From Candidatus Poribacteria bacterium (GTDB lineage Bacteria > Poribacteria > WGA-4E > WGA-3G): a DNA stretch of 64,000 bases. Each line of letters opens with the position of its first letter. Position 1 is the stretch's first letter. The DNA lies in assembly GCA_965205065.1 (NCBI GenBank), contig CBDBFT010000001.1:1817782-1881781 (forward strand), written 5' to 3'. This document shows positions 60,682 to 61,085 of the stretch, one piece after another. The notes beneath the pieces were generated by a model. It was not told the DNA's origin. It did not search any database and saw only the letters and a list, made by a program, of their open reading frames with translations. A program made the position numbers and the translations under genes.

Positions 60682-60711
60682 TTGACAAAGAACGTTTAAT
60701 AGTGTTAAAAT
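60682..60711 (+). promoter_or_regulatory. Candidate sigma70 promoter (TTGACA, 18 bp, TAAAAT) driving the structured direct repeats and the DUF3800 gene
   Basis: TTGACA at 60682..60687, TAAAAT at 60706..60711; ~40 bp upstream of repeat copy 1. Confidence 0.35.
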
Positions 60712-60752
60712 AAAAAATCACGATCTAAAGTGATCAGATGATTCAAATTTTG

Positions 60753-61075
60753 GTGAAGTAGGTCATTGATCTTTAGAGAGTACCGACTCTATTCGCCAGA
60801 GGATCACCGAGTCCTCAAAAAATGAGGGATGCGTTGATAACGCCTTGAGAGTACCGACTCTACCTCCAAAGAGCAATAGCAAATTAAGAGGGGAAATAAT
60901 TTTCCCCTCTCATATCTTGTATTCCAATTTACAATCGGTGAAGTAGGTCATTGATCTTTAGAGAGTACCGACTCTGTTCGCCAGAGGATTACCGAGTCCT
61001 CAAAAACTAAGGGTGCCTTTATAATGCTTTGAGAGTACCGACTCTACCTTCCACTATTTATTAGTGGAACGACTT
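60753..61075 (+). repeat. Two ~135-bp direct repeats (60753..60888 and 60937..61072) with conserved GAGAGTACCGACTCT boxes and internal hairpins; copy 1 ends in a terminator-like stem (GAGGGG-AAATAATTTT-CCCCTC)
   Basis: Copies are ~85% identical, with divergence concentrated in predicted loop/3' regions. The box AGAGTACCGACTCT occurs four times. Hairpin GAGGATCACCGAGTCCTC appears in both copies. Copy 2 runs directly into the ribosome-binding site / ATG of the DUF3800 gene. Confidence 0.8.
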
Positions 61076-61085
61076 GGGTTAAAAA

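What the first reader, a model, noticed from the sequence alone, without database searches (positions are those of the whole stretch)
60682..61085. Promoter + two ~135-bp structured direct repeats immediately upstream of a DUF3800 gene: candidate cis-regulatory RNA or type III-like antitoxin RNA
A TTGACA/TAAAAT promoter is followed by two copies of an element with repeated GAGAGTACCGACTCT boxes and conserved hairpins. Copy 1 ends in a GC stem plus U-rich tract (terminator-like), and copy 2 runs into the ribosome-binding site of the DUF3800 ORF. Tandem structured repeats, then a terminator, then the gene is the layout of type III toxin-antitoxin loci and of some attenuators/riboswitches. DUF3800 proteins are of unknown function and occur in accessory regions.
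Basis: partly seen in the sequence, partly recalled or inferred. Interest (0 to 1): 0.55.

Follow-up and report, generated by a model that had tools for sequence, protein, structure and literature searches.

The report
New structured RNA beside DUF3800 nuclease
Upstream of a gene for an RNase H2-like protein of unknown role, this sponge-symbiont (Poribacteria) genome carries two copies of a conserved, folded 119-nt RNA that matches no catalogued RNA family; its layout resembles RNA-antitoxin/toxin pairs, but its function is untested.

Summary
A near-consensus promoter (60682-60711) is followed by two 119-nt units (60750-60868 and 60935-61052, 91% identical). A strong hairpin with a U-rich tail (60887-60925) lies between them, and a DUF3800 gene follows (61086-61922). 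The unit has 37 copies in 23 loci, all from Candidatus Poribacteria where an organism is named. All lie on the gene strand. Covariation supports a seven-helix fold made of two three-way junctions joined by a hairpin. Rfam 15 has no match, so it is none of the DUF3800-I to -XI motifs that Rfam holds. All 16 DUF3800 genes of this clade that I could examine have at least one unit upstream. Seven loci keep a unit after losing the gene. The constant core is promoter, unit, terminator, gene; the second unit is optional. The protein model resembles RNase HII and keeps its acidic motifs. My best reading (0.45) is a dedicated RNA partner that limits DUF3800 synthesis in cis and binds the protein in trans, as in type III toxin-antitoxin loci and RCd22/AbiF. 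The rivals are a cis-acting leader (0.25) and an RNA cofactor or guide (0.2). It is a new member of the known, unexplained class of DUF3800-associated RNAs.

The parts
60609..60681 (+). Conserved AT-rich stretch upstream of the promoter; 5' limit of the module shared with relatives
   Evidence: blastn gives 89% identity to L001 2333-2430 and 88% to L002 2407-2472. Similarity to related loci starts here.
60682..60711 (+). Sigma-70-type promoter: TTGACA, 18 nt, TG-n-TAAAAT
   Evidence: 11 of 12 consensus positions with a TG extension. TTGAC(A/T) and TACAAT/TAAAAT boxes sit at the same position in L001, L002, L006, L009, L012, L013 and L024.
60716..60749 (+). 5' leader with stem P0 (AAUCA...UGAUU) ahead of unit 1; remnant of a longer leader ('region A') found in relatives
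   Evidence: The GAAUC.../...GAUUC segment is conserved before first units. The window and L013 lack about 200 nt of leader that L001, L002, L005 and L006 carry. L009 and L012 lack P0 altogether, so it is dispensable.
60750..60868 (+). Unit 1 of the structured RNA. Helices, as unit nucleotides (add 60749): P1 2-8/43-49, P2 12-15/19-22, P3 28-32/37-41, P4 50-55/62-67, P5 75-78/114-117, P6 82-86/90-94, P7 99-103/108-112
   Evidence: cmsearch 146.3 bits. The RNAalifold consensus matches the manual structure.
60869..60886 (+). Variable spacer between unit 1 and the hairpin
   Evidence: Its length (12-20 nt) and sequence differ in every locus.
60887..60925 (+). Terminator-like hairpin (AGAGGGGAAA-UAAU-UUUCCCCUCU) with a U-rich tail; presumed 3' end of a roughly 200-nt sRNA, probably leaky
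   Evidence: Flagged by the terminator scan. A hairpin follows the first unit in 15 loci and forms in every minimum-energy fold. Its sequence co-varies (GGGAGGC/GCCUCCC in L020 and L021; GGUGGGAA/UUCCCACC plus U8 in L024).
60935..61052 (+). Unit 2, the second copy, lying in the 5' UTR of the DUF3800 mRNA
   Evidence: cmsearch 128.4 bits. It carries the 'u2-type' P6 (GCNUU-UAU-AAUGC) shared with second units of other loci. Its own P6 has one C-U mismatch.
61051..61067 (+). Small hairpin CCACUA-UUUAU-UAGUGG after unit 2
   Evidence: Present in the window, L001, L005, L011 and L023 but degenerate or absent in L002, L006, L014 and L019. It is therefore probably not essential.
61086..61922 (+). DUF3800 gene (278 aa): RNase HII-like fold plus one C-terminal DUF7084 repeat
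   Evidence: Pfam PF12686 at 2e-9. AlphaFold2 model with pLDDT 85. Top Foldseek matches in PDB are RNase HII 1eke, 3p83 and 1i39, at E from 3e-5 to 2e-4. E10, H134-D135-E136 and Q174...D177 are invariant and D9 is nearly invariant.
61972..62245 (+). Stretch homologous to the sequence just upstream of Hydantoinase_B and to its first 75 codons (from 62021), now broken (pseudogene); 3' limit of the module
   Evidence: tblastn gives 80% identity over HydB residues 1-75. A stop and a frame change interrupt it. blastn similarity to L005 and L023 ends at 62245.

Best explanation
The interval is the non-coding half of a compact RNA-protein module. The conserved promoter starts a transcript made of a short leader hairpin, a 119-nt unit and a stable hairpin with a U-rich tail. 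The unit consists of two similar three-way junctions joined by a hairpin, and each junction carries the AGAGU-ACCG-ACUCU hairpin. I infer that most transcripts end at the stable hairpin and give a free sRNA of about 200 nt. Transcripts that read through carry a second unit as the 5' UTR of the DUF3800 mRNA.

DUF3800 here is an RNase HII-fold protein with its acidic motifs intact. I propose that the RNA is its dedicated partner. In cis, the terminator keeps the protein scarce relative to the RNA. In trans, the folded units bind the protein and hold it inactive, or otherwise control it. This is how type III toxin-antitoxin loci and the RCd22/AbiF pair work.

Shown here: the promoter consensus, the RNA fold and its strand, the association with the gene, and the protein fold. 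Inferred: where transcripts end, RNA-protein binding, and any harmful activity of DUF3800.
For: - Fold and strand. The RNAalifold structure equals the manual one. On the MAFFT alignment, 99.4% of cells pair, against 38-50% when partners are slid. Four pairs show compensatory changes, and 90 G-U cells fit only the + strand.
- More covariation. The model-fitted alignment has 12 pairs changed on both sides, against 2.8 +/- 0.8 in shuffles and 0-3 when slid. The most distant copy, L024, replaces P1, P2, P4 and P5 by other complementary sequences. It fits the same architecture at -30.8 kcal/mol, against a minimum of -33.6.
- Conservation. First units in 10 syntenic loci are 91.8% identical (paired columns 96.4%). 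Third codon positions are 52-56% identical in the flanking genes and 75.5% in DUF3800 itself.
- Association. All 16 DUF3800 genes of the clade that I examined have at least one unit upstream on the same strand. This includes proteins only 45-50% identical (L020, L021, L024), whose RNAs are correspondingly divergent.
- Layout. The constant core is promoter, unit, terminator, gene (L003, L020, L021, L024). In L024 a U8 terminator ends about 20 nt before the ATG. The hairpin forms in the minimum-energy fold in 15 of 15 loci, with no competing pairing.
- Asymmetric loss. The gene was deleted, split by an IS element or apparently frameshifted in 9 loci. A unit and its promoter were kept in all of them, and the reverse was never seen.
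- Protein. The fold is RNase HII-like and the DE, HDE and QxxD motifs are conserved.
- Precedents. DUF3800 is the effector of type VII retrons (PMC7736814). Eleven other RNA motifs accompany DUF3800 genes, several with terminators (PMC5737381). The abiF motif RNA, which has the same layout, is a proven RNA antitoxin acting in cis and in trans (PMC12373285).
Against: - There are no expression, binding or toxicity data of any kind.
- DUF3800 is absent from PADLOC, and no cited source shows it to be toxic.
- The two units straddle the terminator, which is not the tandem array of classical type III loci.
- Unlike DUF3800-I, this RNA is always upstream and on the same strand, which also fits a cis-acting leader.
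- In four loci a single unit sits directly in the 5' UTR of Hydantoinase_B with no DUF3800 nearby. It stays well conserved there, at 128-145 bits.
- The window's terminator has a poor U-tract.
- Losing the gene while keeping the leader is also what simple deletion of a gene would produce.
Confidence: 0.45

Rival explanations
1. The unit is a cis-acting leader: a riboswitch, an attenuator or a protein-binding autoregulatory element. It senses a ligand or the DUF3800 protein and sets read-through of the terminator or translation of the downstream gene, which is DUF3800, or Hydantoinase_B where DUF3800 is absent.
For: - The unit is always upstream and on the strand of the gene in the loci that have a downstream gene; in three it has none.
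- Unit 2 lies in the DUF3800 5' UTR, and a terminator follows unit 1.
- In L013, L015 and L016 one unit sits 17-85 nt before the Hydantoinase_B start. In L013 versus L016 it is 87% identical, while third codon positions of the flanking genes are 59-63% identical.
- Junction nucleotides are highly conserved, as in aptamers.
- The purine-rich 5' arm of the terminator has 4-6 nt complementary to the CUCUACCUCC 3' end of the unit (read).
Against: - The terminator hairpin (tail folds of -20 to -32 kcal/mol) forms alongside much of the unit fold in the minimum-energy structure in 15 of 15 loci, and no antiterminator appears.
- The spacer between unit and terminator varies in length and sequence.
- Unit 2 has no terminator and no sequestered start site. 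Its distance to the ATG ranges from about 14 to about 85 nt.
- The regulated gene would be a nuclease-like protein rather than a metabolic or transport gene.
- Other DUF3800 RNAs are rarely in 5' UTRs and occur in either orientation.
- In L013 versus L016 the neighbouring spacer is even more conserved (92.6%) than the unit. That conservation may reflect recent exchange rather than function.
Confidence: 0.25
2. The RNA is a cofactor, scaffold, guide or substrate of the DUF3800 RNase HII-like nuclease. The two would form a ribonucleoprotein effector, as omega-RNA does with TnpB or IscB, or as msDNA does with retron effectors. It would not be an inhibitor of a toxin.
For: - Several gene-associated motifs from the same 2017 survey later proved to be RNA components of nucleases or reverse transcriptases. 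That they became omega-RNAs is my own knowledge; the survey's RT motifs are mentioned.
- The DUF3800 fold is that of RNase H2, which acts on nucleic-acid duplexes.
- The RNA is more conserved than the protein-coding sequence (92% against 78% nucleotide identity).
- The two units of a locus evolve together, at 93.3% identity within a locus against 91.0% between loci.
- A hypervariable 12-20-nt segment sits between the conserved scaffold and the terminator.
Against: - Units persist with high scores where the protein gene is gone. A dedicated cofactor would be expected to decay there.
- No target-like complementarity was sought or found, and the variable spacer may simply be neutral.
- Neither the motif nor the protein has a relative in viral contigs, and the leader has no blastn match in phage or plasmid records.
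Confidence: 0.2
3. The repeats act as DNA, for example as binding sites for a regulator or as remnants or ends of a mobile element, and the predicted RNA fold is incidental.
For: - The module has moved. In the window it carries a fragment of Hydantoinase_B from its usual slot.
- Units recombine with each other, giving chimeric units and the L021 mini-unit.
Against: - 90 G-U cells would be C-A mismatches on the other strand.
- Compensatory changes keep seven helices intact.
- All 37 copies lie downstream of a promoter-like site or another unit, never inverted relative to the adjacent gene.
- No terminal inverted repeats or transposase accompany the units.
Confidence: 0.03

Closest known systems
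DUF3800-associated RNA motifs DUF3800-I to -XI (Weinberg et al. 2017, PMC5737381)
   Same: A conserved structured RNA that sits next to DUF3800 genes and is often followed by an intrinsic terminator. Its function is unknown. The described motifs are unrelated to each other and are defined by this association.
   Different: No Rfam 15 model matches it. It was found only in Poribacteria. It is always upstream on the same strand, whereas DUF3800-I occurs on either side and in either orientation. It is built of duplicated three-way-junction modules and is often present twice, once on each side of the terminator.
abiF motif RNA RCd22 with AbiF of Clostridioides difficile (PMC12373285)
   Same: A sigma-70-type promoter, an sRNA containing two copies of a conserved motif, a terminator and then the gene. 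In that system short and read-through transcripts coexist, and the RNA neutralises the protein in cis and in trans.
   Different: There the protein is Abi_2/AbiF (HEPN-like), not an RNase HII-like fold. The motifs are 33-35-nt hairpins, both placed before the terminator. None of those functions has been tested here.
Type III toxin-antitoxin systems (ToxIN, CptIN, TenpIN)
   Same: Repeated structured RNA upstream of the protein gene, with a terminator between them that sets the RNA:protein ratio.
   Different: Those toxins belong to the ToxN/AbiQ endoRNase family, and their repeats are short (about 36 nt), strictly tandem and cut by the toxin. These family details are my own knowledge, partly supported. 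Here the units are 119 nt, number one or two, and are separated by the terminator.
Type VII retrons with a DUF3800 effector (Mestre et al. 2020, PMC7736814)
   Same: A DUF3800 protein with the N-terminal DE motif and RNase H2-like modelling, coupled to a non-coding nucleic acid.
   Different: No reverse transcriptase gene is present; the flanks hold a sulfatase gene and a Hydantoinase_B fragment. This protein also keeps the QxxD motif, which the retron-linked proteins lack.

Membership tests
DUF3800-associated RNA motifs (class defined by association; Weinberg 2017) | Conserved RNA secondary structure supported by covariation | tested here: met
   99.4% of cells paired, with 4 compensatory pairs on the MAFFT alignment and 12 on the model-fitted alignment.
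DUF3800-associated RNA motifs (class defined by association; Weinberg 2017) | Located next to genes encoding PF12686 (DUF3800) | tested here: met
   16 of 16 DUF3800 genes of this clade have a unit upstream. Seven unit-only loci are explained by later loss of the gene; L017 keeps a 25-codon remnant.
Any one of the Rfam families DUF3800-I to -XI | Match to the family's covariance model | tested here: not met
   cmscan against Rfam 15 gave no DUF3800 family at E <= 1 in window 59800-62400, none at gathering score in the whole window, and none at E <= 10 in L006 2300-3100. I could not confirm that Rfam holds all eleven motifs.
Type III toxin-antitoxin | Order promoter, repeated RNA, terminator, toxin gene | tested here: inconclusive
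   The core order promoter, unit, terminator, gene is met in L003, L020, L021 and L024. In the window and 11 other loci the second repeat lies after the terminator.
Type III toxin-antitoxin | Toxin of the ToxN/AbiQ, CptN or TenpN endoRNase families | tested here: not met
   Pfam finds only DUF3800, PADLOC finds nothing, and the closest fold is RNase HII.
Type III toxin-antitoxin | The protein is toxic, and the RNA binds and neutralises it (and is processed by it) | not testable with these tools
   This needs expression, co-purification and cleavage assays.
abiF motif / AbiF system | RNA matches Rfam RF03085 and the protein is Abi_2 | tested here: not met
   No Rfam match; Pfam finds DUF3800 only.
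Riboswitch / transcription attenuator | Conserved aptamer-like fold in a 5' UTR | tested here: met
   Unit 2 lies in the DUF3800 5' UTR, and single units lie in Hydantoinase_B 5' UTRs.
Riboswitch / transcription attenuator | Expression platform whose terminator or start-site pairing excludes part of the aptamer | tested here: not met
   The terminator hairpin forms in the minimum-energy fold in 15 of 15 loci and the spacer is variable. Only 4-6 nt of weak complementarity were seen by eye. Minimum-energy folding is not a decisive test.
Riboswitch / transcription attenuator | Binds a specific ligand | not testable with these tools
   This needs in-line probing or ITC.
Retron (type VII) | Adjacent reverse transcriptase gene and an msr/msd RNA | tested here: not met
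   The flanking ORFs are a sulfatase and a Hydantoinase_B fragment. No retron RNA was found in Rfam.

The most novel reading that the evidence does not exclude
The Poribacteria unit and DUF3800 form a new RNA-antitoxin/toxin (type III-like) or RNA-controlled defence family whose toxin has an RNase H2 fold. If so, this would supply the missing functional logic for the whole set of unrelated DUF3800-associated RNAs, which have been unexplained since 2017. Each would be a lineage-specific RNA that holds an RNase H2-like nuclease in check.
Probability: 0.3. Interest if true: 0.75.

Novelty: new member of a known kind. Interest (0 to 1): 0.55.

Why it matters
DUF3800 proteins are widespread. They recur beside retrons, beside Cas12a2/a3 loci and beside at least eleven unrelated structured RNAs, yet no function is known for either the proteins or the RNAs.

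This locus adds a twelfth RNA, structurally unrelated to any Rfam family, with an unusually readable anatomy:
- It has a strong promoter, modular three-way junctions and a terminator.
- An optional second copy lies in the mRNA leader.
- The protein gene has been lost repeatedly while the RNA was retained.

That anatomy gives concrete, testable predictions. There should be a short, abundant sRNA alongside a rare read-through mRNA, the RNA should bind the protein, and RNA supplied in trans should rescue any harmful effect of the protein. The experimentally solved AbiF/RCd22 pair is a direct precedent. Confirmation would assign a role to a large family of unknown function and would extend RNA-antitoxin logic to an RNase H2-fold protein.

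Tried and rejected
- **Known RNA family.** Rfam 15 gave nothing at gathering score in the whole window. Only noise appeared at E <= 1 (window) or E <= 10 (the full leader of L006).
- **Alternative helix.** The unit's 5' UUGGUG could pair with the P4 loop CACCGA. This was 100% compatible in the first 32 units. I rejected it for three reasons. A strand made only of U and G tolerates any transition in its partner. L024 (CAGCUG against UACCGG) does not keep the pairing. L025 (loop GACCGA) does not keep it either.
- **Sequence-specific ACCG loops.** The loops of P3, P4 and P7 vary (GCCG, GCUG, CCUG, ACUG, AUUG). Strict loop recognition, or a fixed seed for pairing in trans, is therefore not supported.
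- **Leader peptide.** Unit 1 contains a possible 8-codon ORF (AUGAGGGAU...) whose start is absent from unit 2, so it is not conserved (read).
- **Phage or plasmid origin.** The motif and the protein have no relatives in viral contigs. The leader has no blastn match in phage or plasmid collections.
- **JGI metagenome scan.** It returned only one locus, L023, so it added little diversity.
- **Profile search for more distant DUF3800 relatives.** It returned the same clade plus one protein. I could not test whether the nearest outside relatives carry other RNAs.
- **Structural selection in L013.** Ten private substitutions with only two in paired columns suggested continuing selection without DUF3800. 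I did not lean on this, because the adjacent spacer is even more conserved than the unit between L013 and L016. Recent exchange of the whole intergenic region cannot be excluded.
- **Repeat counts.** The number of C-terminal DUF7084 repeats in the protein (1-4) shows no relation to the number of RNA units (1-2).

Full report
**What is in the window.** A promoter-like site (TTGACA, 18 nt, TG-n-TAAAAT) at 60682-60711 matches 11 of 12 consensus positions and is the best in the 2 kb scanned. Two direct repeats lie 185 nt apart. A covariance model sets their limits at 60750-60868 and 60935-61052, so each is 119 nt, and they are 90.7% identical. The box GAGAGTACCGACTCT occurs four times, twice per unit. 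With up to 3 mismatches allowed, it occurs nowhere else in the 64 kb. Between the units, a 10-bp GC-rich hairpin (60887-60910) with a moderately U-rich tail is flagged as terminator-like. The ORF at 61086-61922 matches Pfam DUF3800. Unit 2 ends 33 nt before the ATG, which is preceded by an A-rich stretch rather than a clear Shine-Dalgarno sequence.

**Where else it occurs.**
- Search routes. Homologues of the protein form a sharply bounded clade of 63 clusters, 45-100% identical. I reached related loci by two routes. The first looked up the contigs that encode these proteins. The second searched for the DNA motif itself in genome and metagenome collections.
- Organisms. The genome scan returned 13 loci. 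Eleven are titled Candidatus or uncultured Poribacteria, and two come from one unnamed 'uncultured bacterium' MAG.
- Copies. A covariance model built from 32 units finds 37 copies in 23 loci. All copies lie on the strand of the adjacent gene. There are exactly two in the window.
- Negative searches. Viral contigs and the phage and plasmid collections have nothing similar. Rfam 15 has no match to the window or to the longer leader of L006.

**The RNA fold.** RNAalifold on a MAFFT alignment reproduces the structure I derived by eye.
- P1 encloses hairpins P2 and P3.
- P4 is a separate hairpin.
- P5 encloses hairpins P6 and P7.

The unit is thus two similar three-way junctions joined by P4.

The covariation evidence is as follows:
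- On the sequence-only alignment, 99.4% of 1,148 cells are standard pairs, against 38-50% when the 3' partners are slid. Four pairs show compensatory changes.
- Ninety cells are G-U pairs. These would be C-A mismatches on the other strand, so the + strand is the one that folds.
- The most divergent copy is L024, which lies beside a protein 45% identical to the window's. It replaces P1 (AGCUGA/UCAGCU), P2 (GGGUU/AACCC), P4 and P5 (UUGG/CCAA) with different complementary sequences. It fits the consensus architecture at -30.8 kcal/mol, against a minimum of -33.6.
- On the model-fitted alignment, 12 pairs change on both sides, against 2.8 +/- 0.8 in shuffles and 0-3 when slid. That alignment leans towards the structure and includes one forced partial copy.
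- A truncated 'mini-unit' in L021 is a recombinant between the two boxes. It is closed by a new perfect stem, GCGGAG/CUCCGC.

**Conservation.** First units in ten syntenic loci are 91.8% identical; paired columns are 96.4% identical and unpaired columns 85.0%. Third codon positions are 56% and 52.5% identical in the flanking GFO_IDH_MocA and Hydantoinase_B genes, and 75.5% in DUF3800. The spacer between unit 1 and the hairpin cannot be aligned between loci. The RNA is therefore under stronger purifying selection than the protein gene. The three codon positions of that gene are almost equally conserved (77%, 81% and 75.5%).

**Anatomy across loci.** The constant core is promoter, unit, stable hairpin, DUF3800.
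- L003, L020, L021 and L024 have one unit. In L024 a canonical terminator with eight U's ends about 20 nt before the ATG.
- Twelve loci, the window among them, have a second unit between the hairpin and the gene.
- In L009 and L012 the -10 box ends 7 nt before unit 1, so the unit is the 5' end of the transcript.
- Other loci carry about 200 nt of extra conserved leader that the window lacks.
- All 16 DUF3800 genes I examined have a unit upstream. Two of these genes are damaged: L022 is split by an IS element, and L012 has an apparent frameshift.
- Seven loci have a unit but no DUF3800. In four of them (L008, L013, L015, L016) the unit sits before Hydantoinase_B in the same slot.
- In the other three (L007, L010, L017) no gene follows the unit, and L017 keeps a 25-codon remnant of DUF3800.
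- These gene-less units score as high as the rest, at 128-146 bits.
- In the window, similarity to the syntenic loci runs from 60609 to 62245 and includes a broken fragment of the first 75 codons of Hydantoinase_B. The module was therefore copied out of its usual slot.

**The protein.** The alignment keeps YIDE(S/A)G, HDE and QFAD invariant or nearly so. The AlphaFold2 model has a pLDDT of 85. Its closest solved folds are RNase HII structures, at E from 3e-5 to 1e-3. This agrees with published views of DUF3800 as an RNase H2-like domain. The C-terminus carries one to four copies of a 34-residue repeat that matches Pfam DUF7084. PADLOC and NCBIfam add nothing.

**Comparison with what is known.**
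- Weinberg et al. (2017) described eleven mutually unrelated RNA motifs beside DUF3800 genes. Several are followed by terminators, and no function was proposed. This unit belongs to that class by association, but it matches none of the Rfam models.
- The same survey's abiF motif has since been shown to be an RNA antitoxin. RCd22 carries two motif copies and a terminator upstream of the AbiF toxin. It yields short and read-through transcripts, and it neutralises the protein in cis and in trans. Its layout is the same as the core layout found here.
- DUF3800 is also the effector of type VII retrons.

**Mechanism.**
- Preferred reading (0.45). The promoter makes mainly a terminated sRNA of about 200 nt, and read-through yields a little DUF3800 mRNA. 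The RNA binds and restrains, or otherwise controls, the RNase HII-like protein. The supports are the constant promoter-unit-terminator-gene order and a hairpin that forms in every minimum-energy fold without a competitor. Further supports are the matched divergence of RNA and protein, the one-sided pattern of loss (the gene goes, the RNA stays), and the AbiF precedent.
- Cis-acting leader (0.25). It is favoured by the strict upstream, same-strand position and by single units sitting in Hydantoinase_B 5' UTRs. Against it, I found no switching structure, and the distance from unit 2 to the ATG varies widely.
- RNA cofactor or guide (0.2). It fits the RNase H fold and the strong conservation of the RNA. 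It fits poorly with units that persist without the gene.
- DNA-level repeat (0.03). The G-U asymmetry and the covariation argue against it.

**Limits.** There are no expression, binding or toxicity data. Variation among most units is small, so much of the covariation rests on a few divergent loci (L020, L021, L024). In L013 versus L016 the unit is 87% identical, but the neighbouring spacer is 93% identical. Conservation of gene-less units may therefore reflect recent exchange rather than function. I could not check whether genomes with gene-less units encode DUF3800 elsewhere.

**Verdict.** The feature is real and the structure well supported. It is a new, Poribacteria-restricted member of the enigmatic class of DUF3800-associated RNAs. 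Its layout makes the type III/AbiF-like hypothesis directly testable.

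Noticed in passing
window 61972-62245: A broken fragment of a Hydantoinase_B gene (about 50 nt of upstream sequence and the first 75 codons, with a stop and a frame change) follows DUF3800. In most relatives an intact Hydantoinase_B gene sits there. The window's module therefore looks like a copy moved out of the usual GFO_IDH_MocA|Hydantoinase_B slot.
   Followed up: partly
window 62246-64000: About 1.75 kb with no complete ORF longer than 65 aa on either strand (ORFs running off the window end are not listed). 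It may be decayed genes or non-coding sequence.
   Followed up: no
L001 2430-2635; L002 2470-2633; L006 2460-2595: About 200 nt of conserved leader ('region A') lies between the promoter and unit 1 in many loci. It is deleted in the window and L013 and absent in L009 and L012. Rfam has no match to it, and it may be a further RNA domain.
   Followed up: partly
L021 466-532: A 'mini-unit': the 5' half of a unit fused at the GAGAGUGCCGACUCU box to the 3' end and closed by a new perfect stem, GCGGAG/CUCCGC. It has a promoter-like site of its own upstream. It looks like a single three-way-junction module kept foldable.
   Followed up: partly
DUF3800 genes of L002, L003, L005, L006, L012, L014 and L023: Codon positions 1, 2 and 3 are almost equally conserved (77%, 81%, 75.5%). 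Flanking genes show 90-94% at positions 1 and 2 and 52-56% at position 3. The DUF3800 gene thus evolves under weak or diversifying selection, and its silent sites are younger than those of its neighbours, which suggests exchange between lineages.
   Followed up: partly
window 61776-61922 (C-terminus of the protein); P0003, P0015, P0028, P0048: The C-terminus carries 1-4 tandem copies of a 34-residue repeat (QLASEHDIDxATAYQIVDxxITLEEVLRRK) that matches Pfam DUF7084. The copy number varies between close relatives and does not track the number of RNA units.
   Followed up: partly
L022 1370-3651; L012 1941-2773: In L022 the DUF3800 gene is split by an IS element (DDE_Tnp_1). In L012 it has an apparent -1 frameshift at codon 169/170. 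Both RNA units are intact in each locus.
   Followed up: partly
L008 5240-5400: Roughly five tandem copies of a ~34-nt repeat (ctttattgtagcataaacttccagtttgtgct) lie between the terminator hairpin and Hydantoinase_B, in a locus that has lost DUF3800.
   Followed up: no
L025 1-2300 and 2626-2760; L001 1-2050 and 4162-4938: Outside the usual slot, the module sits among defence-like genes: UvrD helicase and Mrr_cat in L025, and two N6_N4 methyltransferases with an IS1595-type zinc ribbon in L001. L025 also has two extra ~35-nt hairpin repeats between unit 1 and its terminator.
   Followed up: no
units within one locus (for example L002, L009, L012, L014): The two units of a locus share private substitutions, at 93.3% identity within a locus against 91.0% between loci. 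This indicates gene conversion or co-selection. Units in loci that lost DUF3800 are chimeras of first-unit and second-unit features.
   Followed up: partly
window 24001-26000: This segment has 50-51% G+C against about 41% for the rest of the window. No Rfam family or tRNA lies there.
   Followed up: no
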